Source: Candidatus Omnitrophota bacterium
GTDB taxonomy: Bacteria > Omnitrophota > Gorgyraeia > Gygaellales > JBFMHM01
Direction of reading: 5' to 3'
Length of the DNA: 64,000 nt
Assembly (NCBI GenBank): GCA_040753015.1
Contig: JBFMHM010000001.1
Coordinates: 82,731 to 146,730 of the forward strand
Part shown: positions 3,884 through 17,785 of the stretch, piece by piece
Numbering within the stretch: position 1 is the stretch's first letter
Layout of the letters: the number at the start of each line of letters is the position of its first letter
Program-made: the position numbers and the translations under genes
Notes under the pieces: model-generated
Databases searched by the model: none
The model's input: the letters and a program-made list of their open reading frames with translations, nothing else
What the model was told of the DNA's origin: nothing

Positions 3884-5512
3884 ATGAAAAAGGCAAAAAG
3901 ATCAGCAAAAAAAATATCCAAACCAAGATCAAAGCTAAGAAAAATCGCACCACGTATTAAAAAAAATAAAAAAATAGAAACTAATAAACCATCTTTGCAA
4001 AAAGAAACAATCCTAATCCTTGATTTTGGTTCACAATATACACAATTAATCGCAAGAAGAATAAGAGAAAGTCATGTCTACAGCCAGATTGTACCATATT
4101 CTATATCTATTGAAAAAATTAAAGAAATTAAACCCAAAGGTATAATCTTATCTGGCGGGCCTGCATCGGTTTATAAAGAGAAAGCGCCATTACCAGCAAG
4201 CCAAATATTTAAATTAGGAATACCTATATTAGGCATCTGCTATGGAATGCAGGTTATTGCTCAAGAATTTGGCGTTAAGGTTAAAACTACAGATCGAAGA
4301 GAATTTGGAAAAACTGAACTTTTTGTTGATGATCCAAAAGATATTTTCTTCAGACTTCCGTCAAATTTTACCTGTTGGATGAGCCATGGAGATTCAATAA
4401 CTAAACTTCCATCTGGTTTTATCAGCTTAGGGCATACTTTAAATACATCTTTTACAGCTATTGCAAACCGCTCAAAAAGAATCTATGGAGTACAATTCCA
4501 TCCAGAAGTAGCCCACACGACAAAAGGCAACGAAATACTATCAAATTTTCTATTTCAGGTATGTTCATGCCGCGGAAACTGGTTAATTAAATCATTTATA
4601 AAAGACTCTATAGAAAATATTAGAAATACAGTCGGTAATAAATCTGTTGTCTTAGGATTAAGCGGAGGAGTTGATTCCTCAGTAGCAGCATCGCTTCTTT
4701 ATAAAGCAATAAAGAAAAATTTGAGGTGTATTTTTATAAATAACGGGCTCTTAAGAGATGGTGAAGCAGAAGAAGTAAAAAGGGTATTTAAAGATGAATT
4801 AAAAATGAACCTTGACTATGTCGATGCTGAAAATAGATTTTTAAAAAGACTCGAAGGTATAATAGACCCTGAAGAGAAAAGAAAAATAATCGGCGAGGAG
4901 TTTGTCAGAGTTTTCGAAGAAAGGGCGCGAAAATTCAAAAAAGCATCTTTTCTCGCGCAAGGTACACTTTACCCGGATGTTATTGAGTCAACCGGCATAA
5001 AAACACACCACAATGTCGGAGGTATCCCAAAAGACCTAAAATTACAACTAATTGAACCACTACGCGATCTTTTTAAAGACGAGGTTAGAGAGATAGGTAA
5101 AGCATTAGGCCTTGCAACTGAAATTATTAACCGGCAGCCATTTCCCGGCCCAGGCCTAGCTGTCCGTATAATTGGGGAAGTAACACCTGAAAGGCTTAGA
5201 TTATTAAGGCATGCCGACAAAAAGGTAAATGAAATATTAAAATCATCTCAAGTAGATACTCCTATATGGCAATCATTTGCTGTGCTTTTGCCGATAAAAA
5301 CTGTCGGAGTTATGGGAGATGACCGCACTTATGAAAATGTTATCGCTATACGCTGTGTAAGCTCAAGCGATGGCATGACTGCTGACTGGGTAAAACTACC
5401 TTACGAAATTCTGGAAAAAATCTCAAACCGTATTGTTAACGAAGTAAAAGGAATAAATCGAGTAGTCTACGACGTATCTACTAAACCTCCTGCAACTATT
5501 GAGTGGGAATGA
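3884..5512 (+). CDS. guaA: GMP synthase (glutamine-hydrolysing)
   Basis: ILILDFGSQYTQLIARRIRE marks the GATase domain and GLSGGVDSSVAA the ATP-PPase P-loop. The C-terminal dimerisation region ends ...PATIEWE. An unusual 40-aa Lys/Arg-rich extension precedes the conserved start. Confidence 0.9.
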   Translation: MKKAKRSAKKISKPRSKLRKIAPRIKKNKKIETNKPSLQKETILILDFGSQYTQLIARRIRESHVYSQIVPYSISIEKIKEIKPKGIILSGGPASVYKEKAPLPASQIFKLGIPILGICYGMQVIAQEFGVKVKTTDRREFGKTELFVDDPKDIFFRLPSNFTCWMSHGDSITKLPSGFISLGHTLNTSFTAIANRSKRIYGVQFHPEVAHTTKGNEILSNFLFQVCSCRGNWLIKSFIKDSIENIRNTVGNKSVVLGLSGGVDSSVAASLLYKAIKKNLRCIFINNGLLRDGEAEEVKRVFKDELKMNLDYVDAENRFLKRLEGIIDPEEKRKIIGEEFVRVFEERARKFKKASFLAQGTLYPDVIESTGIKTHHNVGGIPKDLKLQLIEPLRDLFKDEVREIGKALGLATEIINRQPFPGPGLAVRIIGEVTPERLRLLRHADKKVNEILKSSQVDTPIWQSFAVLLPIKTVGVMGDDRTYENVIAIRCVSSSDGMTADWVKLPYEILEKISNRIVNEVKGINRVVYDVSTKPPATIEWE

Positions 5513-8500
5513 GCTTTGTCCATTTACATGTTCATACACAATTCAGCTTACTTGATGGCGCCTGCCGCTTAAAAGATTTATTTAAAAAAGCTCAAGATTT
5601 TAAAATGCCCGCCCTTGCAATTACTGACCATGGTAATATGTTTGGCGCAATCGATTTCTATCTTGAAGCAAAAAATTTTAATATAAAGCCAATTATTGGC
5701 TGCGAAATATATATTGCCCCTGGTTCACGCTTCGATAAAAAATTGAGCGCAAGCAAATCAGGTAATACCCGCGAAGAAGCTTCATACCATTTTATCCTTT
5801 TAGCAAAAAACGAGGCTGGCTACAAAAACTTAATGAAATTAGTCAGCATCGGCTATCTGGAAGGATTTTATTATAAACCAAGAATTGATAAAGAAATTTT
5901 AAGCGCACATTCTAACGGCCTAATTGGCCTATCTGCATGCCTAAAAGGGGAAATTCCTCAGGCCCTGCAATTTGATAATTTTAATGATGCGCTAAAAATT
6001 GCTGATGATTTTAGTGCTATATTTGGAAAAGGAAATTTTTATCTCGAGCTACAGGAAAATGGAATTAGAGAACAAAAAAAGGTAAATATCGATCTTTTAA
6101 AAATTGCGAAAAAATTATCGCTGCCAGTTGTTGCAACAAATGATGTGCACTACATAACAAGAGAAACCGCCAAAGCGCACGATGCTCTTTTATGCGTTCA
6201 AACTCAAAATGTCTTAAGCAATTCGAATCGTCTAAAACTTGAAACGGATGAATTTTATTTTAAAAGCGCCGAAGAAATGAAAAACCTATTTAAAGATTAT
6301 CCTCAAGAGATTATTTCTAATACACTAACTATTGCTGAAAGCTGTAATTTAAAACTAGACTTTTCTGAAACTCACTTACCAAAATTTGAACAAGACCAAT
6401 TCTCAAGTAACGAAGAATTTTTAAAGGATTTATGTCTCAAGGGCCTTACAAAAAGGTTCGATAAAATCACTCCGCAAATAAAGGAACGGCTTGACTATGA
6501 ATTAGAAGTTATTAATAAAACAGGATTTATAAGCTACTTTCTAATTGTCTGGGATTTTGTTAATTACGCAAAAAATAATAATATATCCGTCGGCCCAGGC
6601 AGAGGTTCAGCATCAGGCAGTTTAGTTAGTTATTTATTAAACATTACGGATATTGATCCTTTAAAATATGGCTTACTATTTGAAAGATTCCTAAATCCCC
6701 AACGTATAACTATGCCTGATATTGATATTGACTTCTGTTACGAAAGAAGACAAGAAGTAATTAATTATGTGACTAAAAAATATGGGCAGGAGAATGTTGC
6801 TCAAATTATAACTTTTGGAACTATGCAAGCGCGTGCAGCAGTGCGCGATGTAGGCAGAGTTATGGGCTTAAGTTATGCCGACGTCGATAAAATTGCAAAA
6901 ATGATACCACCCGATCCAGGCATCGATTTATCTACCGCGATAAAATCAGAACCCGAGCTAGAAAACATACAAAAAAATGACCCTAATATCAACCAATTAA
7001 TTGAAACAGCGCTCGCCCTTGAAGGCTTAAATAGGCATGCGTCAGTACATGCTGCAGGAGTTCTTATCGCAGATAAAGCATTAACAGAATATACGCCTTT
7101 GTATAAAACTTCTGACGATCAAATTACAACCGGCTATTCAATGGGAATATTAGAAAAAATCGGCTTATTAAAAGTTGATTTTCTGGGCTTACGGACATTA
7201 ACTGTTATTGAAAAAACCTTAAAGATTATTGAACAAACAAAAAATAAAAAAATCTCAATTAACGATATTCCTCTTGACGATAAAAAAACGTTTAGGCTTT
7301 TGGCCAGTGCGGAAACCTATGGTGTTTTTCAGCTGGAAAGTTCGGGAATGAGGGATCTTCTTAAAAAATTAAATCCTGATAGATTCGAAGACTTAATTTC
7401 TTTACTTGCGCTTTATAGGCCTGGGCCTATTGGTTCTGGAATGCTCGATGATTTTATGCAGAGAAAACATGGTAAGATACCGATAAAATATGACCACCCA
7501 AAGCTTGAGCCTATTTTAAAAGATACATATGGCATAATAATATTCCAAGAACAGGTTATGCGTATTGCAAGTGAACTTGCCGGATTCAGCCTTGCCCAAG
7601 CAGATTTGCTTCGCCGAGCAATGGGTAAAAAAATTCCTGAAGTTATGGAAAAACAAAGGATTGATTTTGTTAAAGGCTGCCATAAAAATACAATTGGTGA
7701 AAAACTTGCTAATAAAATATTCGATCTTATGGAATATTTTTCCGGCTACGGTTTTAATTTAAGCCATAGTGCTGCTTATGCAATGATTTCTTATCGCACA
7801 GCATATCTTAAAGCAAACTACTTAGTTGAATTTATGGCCGCGCTTCTAAATAGCGAAAAAAATAATACTGATAAAATTGTTGAATATGTTAGCGAAGCAA
7901 GCCGCTTAAATATAAATGTATTGCCTCCGGATATAAATGAAAGTTTTTCTGATTTTACTGTCATTAACGAAAAAACGATCCGCTTTGGCTTATTGGCAAT
8001 AAAAAACACAGGGGAGGGTGCGATAGAATCAATTGTTAAAGCAAGAGATGATGGAAAATTTAAAACTCTTGAAGACTTATCCCAAAGAATTGATTTAAGA
8101 CTTGCTAACAAAAAAGTTTTAGAGAGCTTAATCAAATCTGGGGCATGTGATTCTTTTGGGCTTTATCGCGCGCAATTAATGATGATACTTGAAGAAGTGC
8201 TTGCTAAATCGCAACGGCTAAACCGCGAACGCGATAAGGGGCAGCTTAGTTTGTTTGACTTTAATATTGACGTAGTAAAAACACCCAATGTGCAAGAATG
8301 GCCAAGTCAACAATTGCTTGCATTTGAAAAAGATTTCTTGGGTTTTTATATAAGCGACCACCCGCTAAACAGCTATTCAAGCACAATTAAAAAATTCAGC
8401 ACACCGCAAATAAACAAGCTTCCCCAACTTAAAGACGGCCAAGATATAAGAATCATTGGCCTAATTTCAAAAATCAAGCATACACTAACACGAGCAAAAA

Positions 8501-9091: not shown

Positions 9092-9361
9092 ATGCAAATA
9101 AAAATTGAGCAATTAAGCGAAGAAGAATTGAAAAAGCGAAAAGTTCCATCTTGGCCGATATGGGAAAAAGAAATATCCACTTTTGACTGGCATTATGACG
9201 ATATGGAAGAGTGTTTATTTCTTGAAGGCGATGTTACCGTTACAACGAAAGACGGCAAAAGCGTAAATATTAAGCCCGGCGACTTCGTCACCTTCCCAAA
9301 AGGTTTATCTTGTAGTTGGAATATAAAGAAACCAGTTAAGAAATATTATAGGCTGTTCTGA
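9092..9361 (+). CDS. cupin-fold protein (DUF861/cupin_3 family)
   Basis: WPIWEKEISTFDWHYDDMEECLFLEGDVTVTTKDGKSVNIKPGDFVTFPKGLSCSWNIKKPVKKYY matches the cupin_3 pattern end to end. Confidence 0.7.
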   Translation: MQIKIEQLSEEELKKRKVPSWPIWEKEISTFDWHYDDMEECLFLEGDVTVTTKDGKSVNIKPGDFVTFPKGLSCSWNIKKPVKKYYRLF

Positions 9362-9375
9362 AGCCATGCCTAACT

Positions 9376-9539
9376 CTGCTAAGAAAAATATCGAGTGTTT
9401 TATAGCGAGAAATTTTTTTAGCGTTTAGAGTTTGGCATAGTTATTTTGAATTTGCAGTTGTACTTGTAGGGACAGGCCTGTGTGCCTGTCCGAAATAATG
9501 AGATTGAAGAATAATTAAGTTGTGTGTGCCCCCGGAATT
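9376..9539 (+). repeat. 165-nt repeated leader element, copy 1, with conserved hairpin GTAGGGACAGGCCTGTGTGCCTGTCC (9466-9491) and 3' CCGGAATT site
   Basis: About 80% identical to 10175-10340. The 5' and 3' thirds are near-identical and the centre has indels. It lies directly upstream of the CDS at 9573. Confidence 0.7.
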
Positions 9540-9548
9540 TCTTATAAT
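9529..9548 (+). promoter_or_regulatory. CCCCCGGAATT operator-like site abutting a -10 TATAAT
   Basis: CCGGAATT at 9532-9539 and TATAAT at 9543-9548. AGGAGG and the ATG follow at 9573. Confidence 0.45.
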
Positions 9549-9998: not shown

Positions 9999-10174
9999 TG
10001 TTGCTTGCTTGCTCGCCTCGCGGCGAAGCCGAGGGCCGGCAGGGAGGCAGGTGTTCCCGGAATTCTAGGATTAATAACCCGATGGCAAAGATAAAGCTAG
10101 ATTTGCACAACAAAAACTCCGGCCGAATCTTTGTGCATTTTAGGTTTTAGGCCGTTTTTCGGCCATGTCGAATT

Positions 10175-10340
10175 CTGCTAAGAAAAATATCGAGTGTTTT
10201 ATAGCGAGAAATTTTTCTAGCGATTAGAGTTCGACGAAGTTGCATTTGTAGGGACAGGCCTGTGTGCCTGTCCGAAATGATTGATATTCGGATGATGGAA
10301 TAATTAAGTGTCGTGTCCCCGGAATTAAATTTCCGGAATT
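10175..10340 (+). repeat. 165-nt repeated leader element, copy 2 (hairpin at 10248-10273; inverted CCGGAA-6-TTCCGG at 10319-10336)
   Basis: See copy 1. Tandem TTACCAAACAAA(R)TATAAT modules follow at 10352-10371 and 10409-10427, then AGGAGG and the ATG at 10460. Confidence 0.7.
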
Positions 10341-10459: not shown

Positions 10460-10774
10460 ATGAGCGTTATTAAGGGTGTATTAAAAGAAGAGCTACAAAA
10501 TTCTCTCGATATGCTGAAGGGATATAAAAGAGAGATAGTCAAAATAAAAGGCTGTCTTGTTAGGAAAAAAGTTGGTAAACATTATTATTACTACTTGGCT
10601 AAGAGGCAAGGAAAAAAGATAAAGTTTACATACAAAGGTCCGATTTCAGAAGAGATAAGAAAAGCCTATACTCAGCAAAGAAAAATGCTTAATAAATATA
10701 AGAAATTATTACTACAGGTTAAAAATCAAATTAAATTTATAAGGAGAGCTCTGCGTGGAAAAGAAACAGCGTGA
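10460..10774 (+). CDS. hypothetical small basic protein, partner of the downstream nucleotidyltransferase-fold protein
   Basis: 104 aa, Lys-rich. It overlaps the next ORF by 20 nt, so the two are translationally coupled. Confidence 0.5.
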   Translation: MSVIKGVLKEELQNSLDMLKGYKREIVKIKGCLVRKKVGKHYYYYLAKRQGKKIKFTYKGPISEEIRKAYTQQRKMLNKYKKLLLQVKNQIKFIRRALRGKETA

Positions 10775-11453
10775 GTTATGCCTTGAAATATTAAGACGGT
10801 TTAATGAATCTGGTATACTTGAAAATTTTATTTTAATCGGTAGCTGGGCTGCATATTTCTATAATGAATATTTTTCAGGTACTTCGTATTTAGATCGCCT
10901 CGCTGTAAAAACCAGAGACATTGATTTCTTAATTGATAATCCTCGAAAAATAAAAAGAGATGTTAATATACCCAAGCTCCTTGAAGATTTAGGTTTTATT
11001 GTTATATATAAAGGCAGCGGAGGATATATAAAATTAGATCACCCTGATTTGCTACTTGAATTTTTATCTCCTGAATTAGGTAAAGGCACAGGCAAGCCAA
11101 TACCTCTACCAAAATTAGGAGTAAATGCTGTTGCGCTAAGATTCTTAAGTTTTTTATCTAGTAATACAATTGAAGTTAAGGTTGAGAATTTCTATGTAAC
11201 TTTACCTCACCCAGCTAATTTTGCCTTACATAAATTGATTATTTTCCAACGTAGGTTTAAAGAAGAAAAAGCGCTAAAAGATAGAAATACTGCGATTGAA
11301 GTTTTAAAAGCTTTGATTAATAAGGGCGAGTCAGATACAATTAAGCAAGTTTTTGATTCAATGCCTAAAAAATGGCAAAACAAAATAGTTAATGGCTTAG
11401 ATAAAAACCAAGATAAGAATATATTAATCATATTGCAAAAAATAATTAAATAA
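10755..11453 (+). CDS. putative minimal nucleotidyltransferase-fold protein
   Basis: LIGSWAAYFY...TRDIDFLID fits the pol-beta superfamily G[SG]x(n)DhD pattern. The assignment is tentative. Confidence 0.4.
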   Translation: MEKKQRELCLEILRRFNESGILENFILIGSWAAYFYNEYFSGTSYLDRLAVKTRDIDFLIDNPRKIKRDVNIPKLLEDLGFIVIYKGSGGYIKLDHPDLLLEFLSPELGKGTGKPIPLPKLGVNAVALRFLSFLSSNTIEVKVENFYVTLPHPANFALHKLIIFQRRFKEEKALKDRNTAIEVLKALINKGESDTIKQVFDSMPKKWQNKIVNGLDKNQDKNILIILQKIIK

Positions 11454-11547: not shown

Positions 11548-11678
11548 GAAAAAAGTGTTGCGTCAATTGCCAGGTAAAGGCCGCAGTGTGCATTACGATT
11601 TAGCCTGGCCAGAGAATAAATCGTGAAGAGGTAAAATTTAGTGTTAAAATAAAGGGGAAATAATTATAGTAGCTGTCC

Positions 11679-11731
11679 CCGGAATTTCCCGGAATTCCTA
11701 GATTGCTGCTTAGTTTTTCAAATGGTATAAT
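11679..11731 (+). promoter_or_regulatory. partial third copy of the leader-element 3' end (tandem CCGGAATT, GGAATTCC) plus extended -10 TGGTATAAT
   Basis: aataattatagtagctgtccccggaatttcccggaattcc parallels the 3' ends of copies 1 and 2. TGGTATAAT lies at 11723-11731, upstream of 11790. Confidence 0.5.
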
Positions 11732-11789: not shown

Positions 11790-12401
11790 ATGAGTGAAAT
11801 TATTTATATTCTCACAAATGAAGCGATGAGTGGCTATGTAAAAATCGGTAAAACAACCAATAATCTTGAGCAACGGGTTAGAGAATTGAGCGCGTCAACA
11901 AGCGTTCCATTGCCTTTTACGGTTTTTTATGCTTGCACAGTAAAAAATGCTCAATTTGTTGAACATCAACTTCACGATGCTTTTGATGATAATCGTGTCA
12001 ACCCAAAAAGAGAATTTTTCCGAGTCGCTCCAGAACGAGTAGTCGCGGCTCTAAAGCTTGCAGAAATTGAGAATATAACACCAAAGAAAGACTTTGTTGA
12101 ATCTAAGGAAGATCAGGCGGCATTAAATGCCGCAAGAAAAATAAGAAGTAGATTTAACTTCGAAATGGTAAAAATTCCCGTAGGAGCTGAATTGTATTTT
12201 AGTCGCGATGAAAGCAGTAAGGCAAAAGTCATTGATACGCGTACCGCCAATTCTATTGAATTTAACGGAAAAAAAACAAGTCTATCTCGTTCAGCCCAAA
12301 AAATACTCGGCTATCAATACGGTGTATCAGGCACAGATTACTGGATGTATGAAGGCGAGACGCTCGATGAGCGCCGCAGGAGATTTGAAAGCGGAAAATG
12401 A
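11790..12401 (+). CDS. T5orf172/MUG113 (GIY-YIG-like) domain protein
   Basis: The N-terminus IIYILTNEAMSGYVKIGKTTNNLEQRVRELS...PLPFTV...EHQLHDAF matches the T5orf172 domain pattern. Confidence 0.6.
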   Translation: MSEIIYILTNEAMSGYVKIGKTTNNLEQRVRELSASTSVPLPFTVFYACTVKNAQFVEHQLHDAFDDNRVNPKREFFRVAPERVVAALKLAEIENITPKKDFVESKEDQAALNAARKIRSRFNFEMVKIPVGAELYFSRDESSKAKVIDTRTANSIEFNGKKTSLSRSAQKILGYQYGVSGTDYWMYEGETLDERRRRFESGK

Positions 12402-12405
12402 TTTT

Positions 12406-13449
12406 ATGAAAACTAAATCTTTAAATAGAAACTTACACAAAGCAAGCCAAGCCAAAAAAGACGAGTTTTATACTCAACTTGCCGATATTGAAAATGAATT
12501 GAAATATTATAAAGATCAATTCCGCGGTAAAGTAGTTTTTTGCAACTGTGATGATCCTAGAGAAAGTAATTTCGTCAAATATTTCAGCATGAATTTTGAG
12601 CATTTAGGGCTAAAAAAATTGATAGCCACACATTATAAAGAAGCAAATTTATTTTCCCAAGAACCGCCTTATAAATTAGAATACACAGGCGATAAAAATG
12701 GTAATCGCACACCTGATCCAAGTGAGTTTATGACTGAGATGATAGGAACGGGCGATTTTCGTAGCGTGGAGTGTATTGAACTACTCAAAGAAGCGGATAT
12801 TGTTATGACTAATCCGCCATTTTCGCTGTTTCGTGAATATGTTGCACAGCTCGTGAAGTACAAAAAAAAGTTTTTGATTATAGGCAATACAAATTCACTA
12901 ACCTATAAAGAGATTTTTAAGCTAATTAAAGACAACAAGCTCCGTACTGGTTACACGAATTTTAATGTAGGAATGTTTTTTATTGTGCCAGACGATTGGG
13001 AGCATTTTCATCATATCGATGAAGATGGCAAGAAAATTGTGCGTGTCTCAACTTCGTGTTGGTTTACGAATCTTGTAGTTGAGAAGCATAAGCAAGATAT
13101 CACTCTTTATAAGAAATATTCACGTAAAGAATATCCAAAGTACTACAATTATGATGCAATTAACGTAGACAAATATACCGACATACCTTGCGACTATGAC
13201 GGTGCGATTGGTGTACCCATTACTTTCCTTGATAAATATAATCCGGAACAATTTGAGGTTATTGGTTTGGGTATATCTAATTCAGGGATAGAAATTGGAG
13301 TTAAACCATATAAAGAGGAACATAAAAAATACAGAAGAGAAGTTCAAAAAAGAGGTGCAGTTGATGGTGATTTATATATGATTAAAAATGGAATTGTTGA
13401 TGTTCCTTACGCTCGAGTTATTATAAAAAACAAGAAGGTGAAAAAATAA
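12406..13449 (+). CDS. N6-adenine DNA methyltransferase (EcoRI-methylase-like family, NPPF motif)
   Basis: The start is revised to MKTKSLN, 4 nt after the upstream stop; the track ORF begins at 12208 in an overlapping frame. The sequence contains DEFYTQ..., CNCDDPRESNFVKYF and DIVMTNPPF (motif IV). Confidence 0.7.
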   Translation: MKTKSLNRNLHKASQAKKDEFYTQLADIENELKYYKDQFRGKVVFCNCDDPRESNFVKYFSMNFEHLGLKKLIATHYKEANLFSQEPPYKLEYTGDKNGNRTPDPSEFMTEMIGTGDFRSVECIELLKEADIVMTNPPFSLFREYVAQLVKYKKKFLIIGNTNSLTYKEIFKLIKDNKLRTGYTNFNVGMFFIVPDDWEHFHHIDEDGKKIVRVSTSCWFTNLVVEKHKQDITLYKKYSRKEYPKYYNYDAINVDKYTDIPCDYDGAIGVPITFLDKYNPEQFEVIGLGISNSGIEIGVKPYKEEHKKYRREVQKRGAVDGDLYMIKNGIVDVPYARVIIKNKKVKK

Positions 13450-13450
13450 T

Positions 13451-14557
13451 ATGAAAATTGAACTACACAAAATTAAAATTCATAGAGTGATAGCGGGCTA
13501 CAAAGATAGCGCAGAAGAAGGCGTAGTGGCTTATGATGGTAAACTTGATATTCGTCCAAAATATCAGCGTGAATTTGTGTACAAGGAAAAACAACGTAAT
13601 GCCGTAATCGAAACCATCAAAAACAGCTTTCCACTGAATGTGATGTATTGGATGATCAGAGAAGATGGTGGCTACGAAATGCTAGATGGCCAACAGCGCA
13701 CTATCAGTATCGGTCAATATGTGAATGGCGATTTTTCACTGAACGACCGGTTTTTTCATAATCTGACCAAAGAAGAGCAAGATAAAATTTTGGATTATGA
13801 ATTGATGATTTACTTTTGCGAAGGCACGGATAAAGAGCGATTAGACTGGTTCACGGTCATCAATACATATGGGGAAAAAGTGAACGAACAAGAAATTCGC
13901 AACGCGGTTTACACGGGGCCATGGCTCTCGGATGCTAAATTAAAGTTTAGCAAATCAAATTGCGCGGCATATCTTTTGGCAAATGACGGTGGGCAATTGG
14001 TAAACGGTTCGCCGATCCGCCAGGAATACTTAGAAACTGCACTTTCTTGGATAAACGATGGCAAAATAGAAGATTATATGGCCAAGCATCAGCATAAAAA
14101 AAATGCTGATGAATTATGGCAATATTTTCAGGATGCTATTGCATGGACAAGAAAGACGTTTACGCATTACCGCAAGGAAATGAGTAGTGTACAATGGGGC
14201 GAATTGTATAACCAATTCAAAGACAAAAAACTCAACGCCAATAAACTCGAAGCTGAGATTAAAGAGCTAATGCAAGACGAAGATGTTACCAAGAAATCAG
14301 GTATTTATCCATATGTTTTAACGCGGCAAGAAAAACATCTCTCAATACGCGCGTTTAATGACAAAATGAAGCGCGAAGCATACGAAAGGCAAAAAGGTAT
14401 TTGCCCACACTGCAAAAGCGAGAACAAGAAAAAGAAATGGGAAATTGAAGAAATGGAGGCCGACCATATTACCCCTTGGCATGAGGGTGGAAAGACAACC
14501 ACAGAAAATTGTCAAATGTTATGCAAGCAATGCAACCGGACTAAGTCTGGAAAATAA
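13451..14557 (+). CDS. DUF262 (ParB/GmrS-like) - HNH fusion endonuclease
   Basis: The N-terminal DUF262 hallmarks are QREFVY, LDGQQRT and DWFTVINTYGEKVNEQEIRNA. The C-terminal canonical HNH is CPHCKSE...ADHITPWHEGGKTTTENCQMLCKQCNRTK. It starts 1 nt after the methyltransferase stop. Confidence 0.7.
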   Translation: MKIELHKIKIHRVIAGYKDSAEEGVVAYDGKLDIRPKYQREFVYKEKQRNAVIETIKNSFPLNVMYWMIREDGGYEMLDGQQRTISIGQYVNGDFSLNDRFFHNLTKEEQDKILDYELMIYFCEGTDKERLDWFTVINTYGEKVNEQEIRNAVYTGPWLSDAKLKFSKSNCAAYLLANDGGQLVNGSPIRQEYLETALSWINDGKIEDYMAKHQHKKNADELWQYFQDAIAWTRKTFTHYRKEMSSVQWGELYNQFKDKKLNANKLEAEIKELMQDEDVTKKSGIYPYVLTRQEKHLSIRAFNDKMKREAYERQKGICPHCKSENKKKKWEIEEMEADHITPWHEGGKTTTENCQMLCKQCNRTKSGK

Positions 14558-14561
14558 AAGC

Positions 14562-15260
14562 ATGAATTCATTTAAAGGCGTTATCTATACGGTTTTGAAA
14601 AAAATTAAAAATTTGATTATTGGATTTTTAAGATGGGTGCATAGAGTAGCAAAATTTCTAAATAAACACGCAAAGATTAGGTGGCCAGAGACCATGATGG
14701 CTGTGGCTAATATAATTCTTGCAATAGTAACTTGGCGTTATGTCGTTCTTACTAAATACATCGTTCAGCAACAAATAAATCAAACTAACCAACAAAAAGA
14801 GCAATTTGAGTTGGTTAATAGAGCTAAGGTGTGGTTTCAAGGCTTATCAGGAGATATACAAAAAGGAAATTTATTATTTATTAATTCTGGCAATTTGCCA
14901 GCAAAATATTGTAAATTTTTATGGAGAATAGTTAAAGTAGATGGTGAACAAGTTTTACAAGAATTTAAGGAACAAAGTAATATAATCAAAATTGATAGCC
15001 TTGATCAAGAAGAGATTTTTTCACTCCCATATTCTTCGAATTTTAGTCTAAAAGATCAGATTGTTTTTCTTGTTGTCGTATGGAAATATAGTGGAAAAGG
15101 AATAGAAGATTCGACCCCAAAAGAAAAAGTTCTACTATGGAATATTGACCAGAAGCCTAATGCAGCATGGGTTATTCCATCTTCTAGTATGGGCTCGAAT
15201 CATGTAAGCACACTGGATGCTATAAAGAAAGAATTAAGATCTGCTTTAGATAAAGAATAA
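14562..15260 (+). CDS. hypothetical membrane-anchored protein
   Basis: The start is revised to MNSFKG, 4 nt after the HNH stop. One TM helix (MMAVANIILAIVTWRYVVL) is followed by a 150-aa soluble domain. Confidence 0.45.
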   Translation: MNSFKGVIYTVLKKIKNLIIGFLRWVHRVAKFLNKHAKIRWPETMMAVANIILAIVTWRYVVLTKYIVQQQINQTNQQKEQFELVNRAKVWFQGLSGDIQKGNLLFINSGNLPAKYCKFLWRIVKVDGEQVLQEFKEQSNIIKIDSLDQEEIFSLPYSSNFSLKDQIVFLVVVWKYSGKGIEDSTPKEKVLLWNIDQKPNAAWVIPSSSMGSNHVSTLDAIKKELRSALDKE

Positions 15261-15350
15261 GATAACAAGCAATAAGTAAAAAAGTAAAATGGGGGCGTTT
15301 CTAATTTTTAAAAAAATAAACGTCCCAATTTTCTAACACCGTTTTATTTT

Positions 15351-16268
15351 ATGTTTGATCAAGTTAATATTCCAGATGAATTTATTACAGAAAAAATTTC
15401 TTGGGAAGAAATAAAGAAGATCTTTGGTAAATTTAGTGATCAATGGATTTTTCGCGGGCAAAGTAATGATAGCATTCCAGAATCTATTCTTTATCGAAAT
15501 GAAAAATGTCTCAATTACGGCTCCGAAGAAGAAAGAGCTATAAACGATTTTAAAAATGAGATTGATAAGTATCCCGGTGTCGAATGTAGCCCGGTAACAA
15601 AAGTTGATTGGTTATGTTTGATGAGGCATTACGGCTATCCTAGTAGAATTCTAGATTGGACGAGTTGTCCGTACATAGCAACTTTTTTCGCATTTAAAGA
15701 AGATAAAATTAATTCTGGAGCACCTGTTGTTTGGGCTGTAAACAAGGATTGGCTAAAATATTGGGCTATTCGTAGAATAAAAACTATAGAAAAATATATA
15801 AATTGCACAGAAACTGATTTAACAACAGATGAATGTTTCAATGATATATTTATATTTAATAATGATTATTTGAATTTTGTATATCCATTTTTACCGAGTA
15901 GTAATATTTCAAAATCAGGTAGAATCTCTAAACAAAAATCAGTATTTTTGTGCCCAGGAAATCCCATTAGGGATTTTATGACTAACCTATGTTGCGAGTT
16001 TAGTTCACAAAATAATATAAACAGAGAAATATCCGATGGTTTGATTAGTCAATTCACAGATGAAAAAAATAAATATATTTATAAATTACGAATTAATATT
16101 GAAGATAAAGATAAAATCATAAATGATCTGAAAAATAAAAATATAACAGAGCACAGTCTATCTTTAAATCCACATTCTCTTGATGAAGCCGGTAAAAAAT
16201 TTAAAGAAATGGCACTAAAAAGAGACGAATATTGGCGTAATTGGCTATCAGAAGAAATAAATATATGA
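15351..16268 (+). CDS. FRG-domain protein
   Basis: WIFRGQSNDSIPESILYR...DWLCLMRHYGYPSRILDWTSCPYIATFFAF contains the FRG-domain signature motifs. Confidence 0.6.
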   Translation: MFDQVNIPDEFITEKISWEEIKKIFGKFSDQWIFRGQSNDSIPESILYRNEKCLNYGSEEERAINDFKNEIDKYPGVECSPVTKVDWLCLMRHYGYPSRILDWTSCPYIATFFAFKEDKINSGAPVVWAVNKDWLKYWAIRRIKTIEKYINCTETDLTTDECFNDIFIFNNDYLNFVYPFLPSSNISKSGRISKQKSVFLCPGNPIRDFMTNLCCEFSSQNNINREISDGLISQFTDEKNKYIYKLRINIEDKDKIINDLKNKNITEHSLSLNPHSLDEAGKKFKEMALKRDEYWRNWLSEEINI

Positions 16269-16284
16269 GAGAGGCGGGAGACTG

Positions 16285-17037
16285 ATGACCCAATATTATA
16301 ACTCAAAACGAAAATATAATTTGTATACGCCAAACGGCGCGGAGGCGTATAAACTTAGCCGCTCGCAAATTGAGCTTTACATAAATTGCCCAAGATGTTT
16401 TTATCTCGATAGAAAACTTGGTGTGGGAAGACCGCCGGGGTTTCCTTTTGCCTTAAATAGCGCAGTCGATATCCTTCTTAAAAAAGAATTTGACCTATTG
16501 CGGGCAAACGGCGAGGCTCACCCGTTAATGAAAAAATATAAAGTAGATGCAATTCCTGCAAAACACCCTGACCTTGAAGATTGGCGAAATAATCGAAAGG
16601 GAGTGCAATATTTGCATAAGCCGACTAATTTTCTTATTACTGGCGCAATTGACGACTTATGGGAAAACTCCGCTAAAGAATTTATCGTTGTGGATTATAA
16701 GTCTACTGCGAAAGCAGAAGAAATTGTTGAGCTTAAAGAAGACTGGCAAGATTCATATAAACGCCAAATGGAAATATATCAATGGCTTATTCGTCAAAAT
16801 GGGCATAAAGTATCCAACACAGGTTATTTTGTATATTGCAACGGGAAAATAGGCCAAGATAAGTTTGACGGAAAACTTGAATTTGATATTGCGCTAATTG
16901 CACACGTAGGCAAGGACGATTGGATAGAAGGCGTTATTAAGAATATCCACTGCTGCTTGTCTAAAGACGAAATACCGCCTGCTGATAAAAACTGCGACTA
17001 TTGTGCTTATCGTGAATCAGCCAATATGGTTCGTTAA
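16285..17037 (+). CDS. PD-(D/E)XK nuclease, Cas4/RecB-like, with Cys clusters
   Basis: The N-terminus has CPRC and the centre has GAIDDL...VVDYKST (D..D/E.K). The C-terminus carries HCC...CDYC, a possible 4Fe-4S site as in Cas4. Confidence 0.55.
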   Translation: MTQYYNSKRKYNLYTPNGAEAYKLSRSQIELYINCPRCFYLDRKLGVGRPPGFPFALNSAVDILLKKEFDLLRANGEAHPLMKKYKVDAIPAKHPDLEDWRNNRKGVQYLHKPTNFLITGAIDDLWENSAKEFIVVDYKSTAKAEEIVELKEDWQDSYKRQMEIYQWLIRQNGHKVSNTGYFVYCNGKIGQDKFDGKLEFDIALIAHVGKDDWIEGVIKNIHCCLSKDEIPPADKNCDYCAYRESANMVR

Positions 17038-17045
17038 AAGCGATA

Positions 17046-17525
17046 TTGCAAATGAATAAAATCAAAAAATATTTATGTTGGTTGGGTGGTGGCATAGCCA
17101 CTGTTCTTTGGTATATCTTTGCCGAAGGATGGCTTATTTTAATGGTTGACTTATTCGGGTTTTTTGGTTCAACGATAATCGTAACATTAGTTACGGTTAT
17201 TTTATCATGGCTTATTATCTATGCATCTAAAAACTCTAGTAAACTTGATCGCCTGCAGAATTGGTTAGTAGGCAAAGAAGGCGACCTATCTAAAAAAGCG
17301 CAAGCAGCAATGAAAAGCGGTAAGATATTAGTTGTAGCTAATACGGCAATTTTTTTAGGGCCAATGGTTGCTACATTTTTGATGCTTATGATGGGAATCA
17401 AAGCTAAGAAAGTTTATATTTATTCTATTTTTTGTGCTTTACTATGCGCAATTGTCTGGTGCGGGCTTTACTCGGGCATATTTTGGGAAATTCATAAAAT
17501 ATTTCACAAACCACCAATTACATAA
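17046..17525 (+). CDS. hypothetical small membrane protein (3-4 TM helices)
   Basis: 159 aa. It starts 8 nt after the upstream stop and is hydrophobic throughout. Confidence 0.5.
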   Translation: MQMNKIKKYLCWLGGGIATVLWYIFAEGWLILMVDLFGFFGSTIIVTLVTVILSWLIIYASKNSSKLDRLQNWLVGKEGDLSKKAQAAMKSGKILVVANTAIFLGPMVATFLMLMMGIKAKKVYIYSIFCALLCAIVWCGLYSGIFWEIHKIFHKPPIT

Positions 17526-17527
17526 AA

Positions 17528-17683
17528 ATGCAAACCATTACTGCAAAAGAAATGAGAAAGTTAGATGCTTTGGCGACAAGCCGATACGGAATTCCCAGCT
17601 TGATTCTGATGGAAAATGCGGGAAGATCAGCCAAAGAAGAAGCCTTAAAGATGCTACCAAAAAATGCGCCAAGAAAACAGTAA
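17528..17683 (+). pseudogene. truncated N-terminal fragment of NAD(P)H-hydrate epimerase (nnr/yjeF_N)
   Basis: MQTITAKEMRKLDALATSRYGIPSLILMENAGRSAKEEALKML matches the YjeF_N start pattern (T..EMR..D..A....GIP...LMENAG). It stops at codon 52, before the GxGNNGGDG motif. Confidence 0.45.
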
Positions 17684-17785
17684 CCTTTGGCTTATTGAAA
17701 AAAGGCTTGATTAAAAAACAAGCAAATAAATTTACCGGTGGGGTAGTAGTTGGAGATATTTCCCTCCCACAAAATTAAAGGGGCT

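What the first reader, a model, noticed from the sequence alone, without database searches (positions are those of the whole stretch)
15351..17525. FRG-domain protein + Cas4-like Fe-S PD-(D/E)XK nuclease + small membrane protein as a possible three-gene defence module
The three genes are separated by 16 and 8 nt. The FRG domain is largely uncharacterised but recurs in defence neighbourhoods. The partner has the Cas4-like arrangement of an N-terminal Cys pair, a central D..D/E.K motif and a C-terminal Cys cluster, yet there is no CRISPR context. The third gene encodes a small polytopic membrane protein, which could act as an effector or sensor. I do not recognise this trio as a described system.
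Basis: inference. Interest (0 to 1): 0.7.

Follow-up and report, generated by a model that had tools for sequence, protein, structure and literature searches.

The report
Three unrelated neighbours, not a module
The three genes are real and correctly recognised, but they do not travel together in any other genome: a solitary candidate anti-phage gene (FRG) happens to sit next to a widespread, highly conserved Cas4-like nuclease and an unrelated small membrane protein.

Summary
Three co-directional ORFs (305, 250 and 159 aa; gaps 16 and 8 nt) encode an FRG-domain protein, a PD-(D/E)XK Cas4-like nuclease and a small protein with about four hydrophobic segments. The source is a Candidatus Omnitrophota MAG.

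- In 206 fetched loci (164 FRG, 34 nuclease, 8 membrane protein), no locus holds two of the three families.
- The closest relative found (79-87% aa) has the membrane gene next to a flavodoxin gene, with neither FRG nor the nuclease.
- Short gaps are uninformative here: 60% of same-strand gene pairs in the window are 20 nt or less apart.

The FRG gene matches PADLOC's single-gene candidate PDC-S15. It has no recurrent partner and the lowest GC in the region. It ends a defence island (T5orf172, type II RM).

The nuclease belongs to a large, tightly conserved "solo Cas4-like" (PF12705) family of Omnitrophota and Patescibacteria. Its four invariant Cys are CxxC...CxxC. In other genomes it lies beside different defence systems (Gabija, Ppl, CBASS, PDC-S19, HerA, RM, Thoeris), or beside UDG in Patescibacteria.

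Verdict: ordinary new members of known kinds. The nuclease's recurrent position in defence islands is the only mildly interesting lead.

The parts
15351..16268 (+). FRG-domain protein, 305 aa. It is a candidate single-gene anti-phage protein (PADLOC PDC-S15) and the last gene of the defence island.
   Evidence: PF08867 scores E=4e-19. PDC-S15 model PDLC04937 scores E=1e-26 over residues 17-270. Invariant residues are F34-R35-G36, H93, D102-W103-T104, R191 and Q195. GC is 29.4% and GC3 20%, the lowest in the region. The word-indexed search found 7 relatives besides the MAG's own entry. No recurrent neighbour was found.
16285..17037 (+). Stand-alone PD-(D/E)XK nuclease of the Cas4/AddB/RecB kind ('solo Cas4-like', PF12705), 250 aa, with invariant CxxC...CxxC.
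   Evidence: PF12705 scores E=2e-16. Cas4 profiles score below their cut-offs. At least 8000 90%-identity clusters exist; the 120 best listed are 64-74% identical to the query apart from the MAG's own entry. There are 282 50%-identity clusters at E<=1e-30. The motifs are conserved. The AF2 model has pLDDT 86. The best Foldseek matches are the AdnAB entries, Cas4 Pcal_0546, MGME1, a DinG, EXO5, a type I-C Cas4, AddB and SSO0001.
17046..17525 (+). Small membrane protein with about four hydrophobic segments (159 aa from TTG, 157 aa from the ATG at 17052). Its named homologues are from Omnitrophota, and it is unrelated to the other two genes.
   Evidence: There are 28 homologues; every one that carries a name is from Omnitrophota MAGs. 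In L012, L014, L017 and L034 it sits among metabolic or signalling genes and never beside FRG or the nuclease.
15291..15332 (+). Stable hairpin followed by a U-tract between the upstream gene and the FRG gene. It is terminator-like.
   Evidence: Fold of 15261-15350: -16.5 kcal/mol, z=-2.76 against shuffles. The sequence is shown. The consensus terminator scan did not list it because its loop is too long.
11790..14557 (+). Context: the defence island upstream. It comprises T5orf172 (PDC-S57), an EcoRI-like adenine methyltransferase, and a GmrSD_N+HNH type II restriction enzyme.
   Evidence: Pfam and PADLOC hits are. The REase is 78% identical to one in L124. There the RM pair lies directly upstream of a nuclease homologue, without the two intervening genes.
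14568..15260 (+). Context: unknown protein with a single hydrophobic segment. The ORF can be read from 14445. Its low GC resembles that of FRG.
   Evidence: No Pfam or PADLOC hit. GC is 31.6% and GC3 23%. It is absent from all fetched loci.
17528..17778 (+). Context: remnant of an NAD(P)H-hydrate epimerase gene (yjeF N-terminal domain) with an internal deletion, directly after the membrane gene.
   Evidence: TIGR00197 positions 3-43 match 17528-17683 (E=3e-4). Positions 173-206 match the end of the ORF 17434-17778 in another frame (E=7e-3).

Best explanation
The three genes are independent neighbours in a compact, co-directional stretch of an Omnitrophota chromosome. They are not one system.

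(1) The FRG gene is a solitary candidate anti-phage gene (PADLOC PDC-S15). It is the last cargo gene of a defence island that starts after dnaE: zinc-finger gene, NTP_transf_8 pair, T5orf172, type II RM, an unknown gene, then FRG. It was probably acquired separately, possibly together with the low-GC unknown gene before it. By inference from the published assignment of Frg to the ADP-ribosyltransferase superfamily, it would act alone as an NAD+-consuming or ADP-ribosylating effector.

(2) The nuclease is a member of a large, strongly conserved family of stand-alone Cas4-like PD-(D/E)XK nucleases of small-genome bacteria (Omnitrophota, Patescibacteria). It has an intact RecB-type active site and a four-Cys metal or Fe-S 'staple' in a CxxC...CxxC arrangement. 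It is a stable gene around which defence systems are swapped. Its most likely activity is DNA-end resection or degradation, serving repair and possibly the clearance of DNA cut by neighbouring systems. This activity is inferred, not shown.

(3) The membrane protein is an unrelated small membrane protein of unknown function.
For: Not co-conserved:
- 0 of 206 loci hold two of the three families. The set comprises 164 FRG loci (126 with at least 900 nt downstream), 34 nuclease loci (28 with at least 900 nt upstream) and 8 membrane loci (earlier subset).
- The families differ greatly in conservation. The nuclease has at least 8000 clusters, and its best 120 are 64-74% identical to it. The FRG protein has 7 word-index relatives at 43% identity or less.
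- The closest relative, L034 (79-87% aa identity), has flavodoxin followed by the membrane gene, with no FRG and no nuclease.

FRG acts alone:
- It matches PDC-S15 models.
- 113 neighbours of FRG homologues show no recurrent family.
- FRG-like genes occur in 32 plasmids and in a P2-like phage.
- Frg is assigned to the ART superfamily as a possible NADase effector (PMC9503650).
- Composition differs: FRG has 29% GC and the nuclease 39%.

The nuclease is a stable gene with interchangeable neighbours. Upstream genes in other loci are:
- AriA/Old-like (L001) and GajB-like UvrD (L005).
- GajA+GajB (L115) and Ppl (L116, L118).
- ResIII/TnsA (L119) and SMODS+SLATT (L120).
- PDC-S19 (L121) and HerA (L123).
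- The same type of RM pair (L124).
Thoeris or T5orf172 genes follow the nuclease in L124 and L121.

Related genomes keep the nuclease and the downstream core genes but swap the neighbours:
- L115 and L116 have nucleases 84% identical.
- L120 and L121 have nucleases 92% identical, with a SAM riboswitch and metK downstream.

Other contexts of the nuclease:
- In Patescibacteria it is followed by UDG in 4 of 10 loci and preceded by an ATP-cone protein in 4 of 10 (Mrr_cat also detected in 3).
- In L008 it lies ABC-F -> nuclease -> MscS -> M48 -> DinB, and DinB is also near it in the window.

The literature already notes solo Cas4 enrichment in CPR and small genomes, with 'uncharacterized defense or repair functions' (PMC5704561).
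Against: - Adjacency and co-orientation are compatible with co-transcription of the three genes in this genome. That was not tested, and no expression data exist.
- The sampling of nuclease loci is small (about 25 non-redundant). Ten come from IMG/VR, which may be enriched for islands.
- The nuclease's frequent position directly downstream of defence genes (gaps 0-15 nt) could reflect a functional link with whatever lies upstream, including FRG.
- Whether the nuclease is core in this particular genome is unclear. In L034 the stretch between NTP_transf_8 and the membrane gene lacks it.
- The FRG mechanism rests on literature inference. My structure model was poor (pLDDT 63) and gave no fold match.
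Confidence: 0.8

Rival explanations
1. One reading: FRG, the Cas4-like nuclease and the membrane protein form one dedicated three-gene defence system, acting as sensor, effector and membrane effector.
For: The genes are tightly spaced, co-directional and in a defence island. A terminator-like hairpin precedes the FRG gene, so the three could form a transcription unit.
Against: No co-occurrence of any pair was found in 206 loci. The closest relative lacks the arrangement. Membrane-protein homologues lie in housekeeping contexts. The three families differ widely in abundance and conservation. Tight spacing is the norm in this genome.
Confidence: 0.03
2. The nuclease is a promiscuous accessory enzyme. 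It works with whichever defence system is encoded directly upstream of it (here FRG), for example by degrading or resecting DNA after the upstream system has acted. The Cas4-family enzyme ACE1 assists Argonautes in a comparable way.
For: In 11 loci plus the window, the nuclease lies co-oriented and 0-16 nt downstream of a recognised defence gene of a different kind each time. Precedents exist: ACE1 with pAgo (PMC12094033), and UvrD-Cas4-like fusions in RM contexts (PMC5704561).
Against: - The upstream systems are ones described as complete without such a nuclease (Gabija, Ppl, CBASS, type II RM, PDC-S19); this is from my own knowledge.
- The nuclease stays 58-92% identical while its partners change completely.
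- In Patescibacteria and L008 the upstream gene is not a defence gene.
- Defence genes also lie downstream.
- An FRG/NADase-type effector has no obvious need for a DNA nuclease.
Confidence: 0.1
3. The nuclease is itself an autonomous single-gene defence system that simply resides in defence islands. FRG and the nuclease would then be two independent defence genes side by side.
For: It is embedded between defence systems on both sides in some loci (L124: RM, nuclease, Thoeris; L121: PDC-S19, nuclease, T5orf172). Guilt-by-association logic applies. Solo Cas4 next to RM genes in DPANN archaea has been interpreted this way (PMC5704561).
Against: - Conservation is very strong (the best 120 listed clusters are 64-74% identical to the window protein, and 46-58% across phyla in alignment A1), and the gene is retained while its neighbours are swapped. 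This is more typical of a housekeeping gene.
- It lies in repair-type and housekeeping contexts in Patescibacteria and L008.
- It is not in PADLOC except as weak Cas4 hits.
- It is absent from 50,697 phage records and present in only 1 of 72,556 plasmids.
- Solo-cas4 genes evolve like ordinary cellular genes (PMC5704561).
Confidence: 0.15

Closest known systems
PADLOC PDC-S15 (phage defence candidate, single gene; FRG-domain proteins, Pfam PF08867)
   Same: There is a full-length match to a PDC-S15 model (E=1e-26, residues 17-270). The FRG motif is invariant. The gene is solitary with no conserved partner and sits in a defence island.
   Different: It is a divergent subfamily, with 43% identity or less to anything in the 5.8-billion-protein collection apart from the MAG's own entry. 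PDC-S15 is itself only a candidate; I found no published activity test.
Solo Cas4 / Cas4-like nucleases of pfam12705 (Hudaiberdiev et al. 2017, PMC5704561)
   Same: It is a stand-alone PD-(D/E)XK nuclease with four conserved Cys, outside any CRISPR-cas locus. It is enriched in small-genome environmental bacteria including CPR, sometimes beside RM genes, with a function proposed as 'defense or repair'.
   Different: It falls below the curated Cas4 thresholds (PF01930 22.2 vs 22.7 bits; TIGR00372 38 vs 65 bits). Its Cys are arranged 2+2 (CxxC...CxxC) rather than 1+3. It is not fused to a helicase, unlike the largest pfam12705 branch.
Nuclease domains of AdnAB/AddAB, and Cas4 (Pcal_0546, SSO0001), MGME1, EXO5
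   Same: These are among the best structural matches to the AF2 model, with Foldseek probability 0.97-1.0. They share the RecB-type motifs D...D-x-K and Q-x3-Y.
   Different: TM-scores are only 0.32-0.48 and identity 10-16%. Even a family profile finds no PDB relative by sequence. There is no attached helicase.
ACE1, Argonaute-associated Cas4 family enzyme (PMC12094033)
   Same: It is a Cas4-family nuclease encoded beside, and cooperating with, a non-CRISPR defence protein. It is a weak structural match (ranks 26-27).
   Different: ACE1 has one specific, co-conserved partner (long-A pAgo). The nuclease here has no constant partner.
Defence islands and integration hot spots flanked by conserved genes
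   Same: Related genomes keep the nuclease and downstream core genes while the adjacent defence systems differ (L115/L116 and L120/L121).
   Different: I found no att-like repeat, tRNA or conserved junction sequence at the nuclease. The same gene family marks variable regions in several lineages, which ordinary hot spots do not do.

Membership tests
FRG domain (Pfam PF08867) | Profile match above Pfam's gathering score. | tested here: met
   69.7 bits against a cut-off of 25, E=4e-19, residues 31-119.
FRG domain (Pfam PF08867) | Conserved F-R-G motif and the other family-invariant residues. | tested here: met
   F34-R35-G36, H93, D102-W103-T104, R191 and Q195 are invariant in 8 sequences.
PADLOC PDC-S15 (single-gene defence candidate) | Match to a PDC-S15 HMM. 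| tested here: met
   13 PDC-S15 models match. The best is PDLC04937, E=1e-26, residues 17-270.
PADLOC PDC-S15 (single-gene defence candidate) | Stands alone, with no obligatory partner gene. | tested here: met
   No recurrent family was found among 113 neighbours of 80 FRG loci. The contexts of L019-L021 are unrelated to each other.
PADLOC PDC-S15 (single-gene defence candidate) | Protects against phage. | not testable with these tools
   This needs heterologous expression and phage challenge. I found no published test.
ADP-ribosyltransferase superfamily (the literature's assignment of Frg) | ART fold with an NAD+-binding catalytic triad. | tested here: inconclusive
Cas4 (PF01930 / TIGR00372) | Profile match above the curated cut-offs. 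| tested here: not met
   PF01930 scores 22.2 bits against 22.7. TIGR00372 scores 38.2 bits against 65.
Cas4 (PF01930 / TIGR00372) | Encoded in a CRISPR-cas adaptation module. | tested here: not met
   The 64-kb window has no CRISPR-like repeat array. The neighbours are FRG and a membrane protein. The rest of the window was not scanned for cas genes.
Cas4 (PF01930 / TIGR00372) | Fe-S 'staple' of one N-terminal Cys plus C-x2-C-x5-C at the C-terminus (canonical pattern from my own knowledge). | tested here: not met
   The family-invariant Cys are C35-x2-C38 and C237-x2-C240, with no third C-terminal Cys at +5 or +6. Whether the four Cys bind Fe-S or Zn cannot be told from sequence.
PD-(D/E)XK nuclease superfamily, PDDEXK_1 (PF12705) / RecB-like | Profile match, plus the catalytic D...(D/E)-x-K and Q-x3-Y motifs. 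| tested here: met
   61 bits against a cut-off of 22. D123, D124, D137, K139, Q161 and Y165 are invariant in 20 sequences from two phyla. Fold matches are to AdnAB, Cas4, MGME1, EXO5 and AddB.
Solo Cas4-like nucleases (sense of Hudaiberdiev et al. 2017) | Cas4-family nuclease encoded outside CRISPR-cas loci, in no constant gene context. | tested here: met
   About 25 non-redundant loci show varied contexts and no cas genes among the neighbours scanned.
Proposed FRG + nuclease + membrane protein three-gene system | The genes recur together in other genomes. | tested here: not met
   0 of 206 loci hold any two of the three families. The closest relative lacks the arrangement.

The most novel reading that the evidence does not exclude
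The CxxC...CxxC solo Cas4-like nuclease is more than a bystander. On this reading it is a conserved 'hub' gene of defence islands in small-genome bacteria (Omnitrophota, Patescibacteria and relatives). It could be a shared DNA-end degrader that finishes off DNA cut or marked by whichever neighbouring system is present, perhaps standing in for RecBCD/AddAB. Alternatively, its activity could make its own flanks a recombination hot spot where defence cassettes are exchanged. FRG would be one of many interchangeable neighbours.
Probability: 0.2. Interest if true: 0.6.

Novelty: new member of a known kind. Interest (0 to 1): 0.25.

Why it matters
As proposed, a new three-gene defence system would have been worth testing, but the evidence says it does not exist as a unit. 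Three smaller results remain:
- A divergent Omnitrophota member of the untested FRG/PDC-S15 candidate family.
- A clear description of a large, tightly conserved solo Cas4-like nuclease family with a 2+2 Cys arrangement.
- The observation that this nuclease is a fixed point beside which different defence systems (Gabija, Ppl, CBASS, RM, Thoeris, PDC-S19, HerA, FRG) are found in different genomes.

If the last point survives an unbiased survey, the nuclease could serve as a marker for finding defence islands in candidate phyla. It could also bear on the open question of what solo Cas4 proteins do.

Tried and rejected
- Exact-sequence look-ups of the window's FRG and nuclease proteins found no contig on record.
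- A 157-aa ORF upstream of the FRG homologue in L019 looked like the membrane protein by length. It is a TPR protein with no similarity.
- PDB sequence searches with the single nuclease, the nuclease family profile and the FRG protein gave only spurious hits.
- Consensus promoter and terminator scans of 9.0-18.7 kb were not above shuffled expectation.
- Rfam found nothing in 8.8-18.0 kb.
- I looked for att-like direct repeats bracketing the island or the trio. None flank FRG or the nuclease.
- I looked for a conserved DNA motif at the junction upstream of the nuclease start in 17 loci. None was found.
- I looked for tRNA genes near the nuclease in 13 loci as integration targets. None was found.
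- The island's unknown 271-aa protein has no homologue in any fetched locus, so an 'unknown + FRG' pair could not be supported.
- The nuclease is absent from GenBank phages and occurs in only one plasmid, at 41% identity and among hypothetical genes.
Full report
OBSERVATION

The three ORFs exist as described. They lie at 15351-16268 (305 aa), 16285-17037 (250 aa) and 17046-17525 (159 aa from a TTG start). The NCBI record starts the third gene at the ATG at 17052, giving 157 aa. All three are on the + strand, with gaps of 16 nt and 8 nt (14 nt with the ATG start). The exact proteins come from a 417-kb contig of a Candidatus Omnitrophota MAG.

Protein 1 has an FRG domain: PF08867, E=4e-19, well above the cut-off.

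Protein 2 is a PD-(D/E)XK nuclease: PF12705, E=2e-16. It is Cas4-like only in the loose sense.
- The Cas4 profile PF01930 scores 22.2 bits against a cut-off of 22.7.
- TIGR00372 scores 38 bits against a cut-off of 65.
- PADLOC Cas4 models reach E=1e-11.

Protein 3 has hydrophobic windows in four regions, which I read as about four transmembrane segments. It has no significant family hit.

No CRISPR array is present in the window.

The tight spacing carries little information here. 60% of same-strand neighbouring gene pairs in the window are 20 nt or less apart, and nearly all of the first 37 or so ORFs are on the + strand.

DO THE GENES BELONG TOGETHER?

The three families differ greatly in abundance and conservation.
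- The nuclease has at least 8000 90%-identity clusters. Apart from the MAG's own entry, the 120 best listed are 64-74% identical to it.
- A full HMMER scan of 1.84 billion representatives finds 282 nuclease clusters at 50% identity with E<=1e-30.
- The FRG protein has 7 relatives in the word-indexed search besides the MAG's own entry, the best at 43% identity.
- The membrane protein has 28 homologues. Every one that carries a name is from Omnitrophota MAGs.

I fetched genomic loci for each family.
- Nuclease.
- FRG.
- Membrane protein.

I then searched all six-frame ORFs of all 206 loci with HMMs of the nuclease and FRG alignments, and with the membrane protein sequence. The result was 164 loci with FRG only, 34 with the nuclease only and 8 with the membrane protein only. 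None held two families. Flanks were adequate:
- 126 FRG loci have at least 900 nt downstream of the gene.
- 28 nuclease loci have at least 900 nt upstream.
- 29 nuclease loci have at least 500 nt downstream.

A Pfam scan of 113 immediate neighbours of FRG homologues found no recurrent partner. No family was seen more than three times.

Membrane-protein homologues sit among metabolic and signalling genes. The closest relative I could find is L034, with proteins 79-87% identical to the window's. There the order is NTP_transf_8, two unknown genes, flavodoxin, membrane protein, RluA. Neither FRG nor the nuclease is present.

WHAT THE FRG GENE IS

It matches 13 models of PADLOC's single-gene candidate PDC-S15. 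The best match is full-length, E=1e-26 over residues 17-270.

It closes a run of defence-type genes that begins after dnaE.
- A CxxC zinc-finger protein.
- A small ORF plus an NTP_transf_8 protein.
- T5orf172 (PDC-S57).
- An EcoRI-like methyltransferase.
- A GmrSD_N+HNH type II restriction enzyme (PADLOC E=1e-126).
- An unknown protein with a single hydrophobic segment.
- FRG.

FRG has the lowest GC of the region: 29.4%, with GC3 of 20%. The unknown gene before it is similar at 31.6% (GC3 23%). The nuclease has 39.0% (GC3 35%).

In locus L124 a 78%-identical restriction enzyme and its methyltransferase lie directly upstream of a nuclease homologue that is only 50% identical. The window's unknown gene and FRG gene therefore look like an extra insertion between the RM pair and the nuclease. 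This is an inference.

A stable hairpin with a U-tract separates the unknown gene from FRG (z=-2.76).

FRG-like genes also occur on 32 plasmids and at the right end of a P2-like phage genome.

WHAT THE NUCLEASE IS

An alignment of 20 sequences from Omnitrophota and Patescibacteria (46-71% identical to the window protein) shows these invariant residues:
- D123, D124, D137, Y138 and K139.
- Q161 and Y165.
- Four Cys: C35-x2-C38 and C237-x2-C240.

The RecB-type active site is intact. The Cys arrangement is 2+2. From my own knowledge, the canonical Cas4/AddB/Dna2 pattern is one N-terminal Cys plus C-x2-C-x5-C. The second Cys pair of the window protein (C223, C224) is not conserved outside the close group.

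The AlphaFold model is good (pLDDT 86). Its best Foldseek matches in the PDB are the AdnAB entries, Cas4 Pcal_0546, MGME1, a DinG, EXO5, a type I-C Cas4, AddB and SSO0001. Probabilities are 0.97-1.0 but TM-scores only 0.32-0.48. Neither the single sequence nor the family profile finds a PDB relative by sequence.

This fits the 'solo Cas4 / pfam12705 Cas4-like' class described by Hudaiberdiev et al. They noted its over-representation in CPR and other small-genome organisms. They also noted its occasional adjacency to RM genes and proposed 'uncharacterized defense or repair functions' (PMC5704561). A Solo-Cas4 from Methanosarcina mazei has been shown to be a metal-dependent dsDNA nuclease with a [4Fe-4S] cluster (PMC12501428).

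NEIGHBOURS OF THE NUCLEASE

This is the most interesting thing I found. In many loci the nuclease lies co-oriented and 0-15 nt downstream of a recognised defence gene, and the gene differs each time.

| Locus | Gene(s) directly upstream of the nuclease |
|---|---|
| L001 | AriA/Old-like ATPase-TOPRIM protein, behind a type I HsdR |
| L005 | GajB-like UvrD helicase |
| L115 | Gabija-like pair (GajA-like + GajB-like) |
| L116, L118 | Ppl-like proteins |
| L119 | ResIII + TnsA-like protein |
| L120 | SMODS/AGS_C plus SLATT_4 (CBASS-like) |
| L121 | PDC-S19 |
| L123 | HerA |
| L124 | The RM pair |

Defence genes can also follow the nuclease: T5orf172 in L121, and ThsB-ThsA-ThsB (Thoeris-like) in L124.

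Related genomes keep the nuclease and the downstream core genes while the neighbours differ.
- L115 and L116 have nucleases 84% identical. Downstream synteny includes YceG.
- L120 and L121 have nucleases 92% identical. Downstream lie a conserved small acidic ORF, a SAM riboswitch (Rfam, 71 bits) and metK.

These IMG/VR 'viral' contigs therefore look like cellular islands.

In other genomes the context is not defensive.
- In 4 of 10 Patescibacteria loci a uracil-DNA glycosylase follows the nuclease.
- In 4 of 10 an ATP-cone protein precedes it, with Mrr_cat also detected in 3.
- In L008 the order is ABC-F, nuclease, MscS, M48 peptidase, DinB.
- DinB also lies 1.5 kb downstream of the nuclease in the window.

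I found no tRNA, att-like repeat or conserved junction sequence next to the nuclease. It is absent from 50,697 phage records and present in only one of 72,556 plasmids.

INTERPRETATION

The best-supported reading is that the trio is a chance adjacency.
- FRG is a solitary candidate defence gene at the end of a defence island.
- The nuclease is a stable, strongly conserved solo Cas4-like gene that often has defence systems as neighbours.
- The membrane protein is an unrelated small membrane protein.

I put 0.8 on 'not a functional three-gene unit'.

What the nuclease does remains inferred. The intact RecB-type site, the fold relatives (all DNA-end-processing enzymes) and the UDG/DinB neighbours point to DNA-end resection or degradation.

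Its recurrent place in defence islands leaves two live rivals.
- It is a promiscuous helper of adjacent systems (0.10).
- It is an autonomous defence gene (0.15).

Against both stand three observations. It is very strongly conserved and is retained while its neighbours are swapped. It occurs in housekeeping contexts. The literature finds that solo-cas4 genes evolve like ordinary cellular genes.

There is a caveat. My sample of nuclease loci is small (about 25 non-redundant), and the ten IMG/VR loci are probably enriched for islands. None of the GTDB-derived upstream neighbours I scanned matched a dedicated defence-system family. The ATP-cone proteins do, however, show weak Mrr_cat (restriction-endonuclease) matches at or just above that model's cut-off.

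NOVELTY AND VERDICT

Both recognisable genes are new members of known kinds: FRG/PDC-S15 and solo Cas4-like PF12705. The proposed three-gene system is not supported.

Interest is low for the finding as stated. The nuclease's role as a fixed point in variable defence neighbourhoods, and its 2+2 Cys variant, are modest leads that an unbiased genome survey could settle.

Noticed in passing
window 9346-9541, 10145-10328, 11674-11704: A direct repeat of about 190 nt (85-93% identical) contains the hairpin GGGACAGGCCTGTGTGCCTGTCC. A partial third copy carries TGTCCCCGGAATTTC and the palindrome TTCCCGGAATTC. Each copy sits just upstream of an island gene (zinc-finger gene, small ORF/NTP_transf_8 pair, T5orf172). 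It could be a repeated regulatory or cassette-boundary element. No Rfam match.
   Followed up: partly
window 17528-17778: Remnant of an NAD(P)H-hydrate epimerase gene (yjeF N-terminal domain). Profile positions 3-43 and 173-206 survive in two different frames and the middle is deleted. This is a sign of rearrangement right after the membrane gene.
   Followed up: partly
window 11790-14557; L124 2699-4947: T5orf172 (PDC-S57) is followed by an EcoRI-like methyltransferase and a GmrSD_N+HNH enzyme that PADLOC calls a type II REase (E=1e-126). A 78%-identical REase and a 49%-identical MTase lie directly upstream of a nuclease homologue in L124, followed there by Thoeris-like genes.
   Followed up: partly
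window 10460-11453; L034 3-428: A small ORF overlaps an NTP_transf_8 nucleotidyltransferase gene and looks like a toxin-antitoxin-type pair. The nucleotidyltransferase is 87% identical in the closest relative L034, which has different genes after it.
   Followed up: no
window 14568-15260: Unknown protein with a single hydrophobic segment, just before FRG. It has no family hit and no homologue in any fetched locus. Its low GC (31.6%) resembles FRG's (29.4%), so the two may have arrived together.
   Followed up: partly
window 16285-17037 and alignment A1: The family's four invariant Cys are C35-x2-C38 and C237-x2-C240. This is a 2+2 arrangement rather than the 1+3 'iron staple' I know from Cas4, AddB, Dna2 and EXO5. 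Whether they bind Fe-S or Zn is open.
   Followed up: partly
L029, L030, L031, L032 (Patescibacteria genomes), around the nuclease at about 5000-5780 (L030: 1438-2217): A recurrent arrangement: ATP-cone + Mrr_cat protein, then the nuclease, then a uracil-DNA glycosylase. UDG is present in all four loci and the ATP-cone + Mrr_cat protein in three of them. This may be a conserved repair-type neighbourhood.
   Followed up: partly
L120 6421-6714, L121 6411-6709, L122 5764-5937, L123 2381-2545: A conserved small acidic ORF (about 52 aa, MLEDKDPEEIIEIAE...) lies downstream of the nuclease in four loci. In L120 and L121 a SAM-I riboswitch and metK follow it. These IMG/VR 'viral' contigs therefore look like cellular DNA.
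   Followed up: partly
L126 320-1684 (Peduovirus P2_2H1, NC_049386.1 30979-32343): A 454-aa hypothetical protein with FRG-like similarity sits near the right end of a P2-like phage genome, after the replication gene. From memory, P2-like phages carry anti-phage cargo in that region.
   Followed up: no
P0157 (749 aa), P0250 (858 aa), P0185 (489 aa): A few relatives of the nuclease are much longer, with the nuclease part at the C-terminus. These may be fusions that could hint at partners. They were not examined.
   Followed up: no
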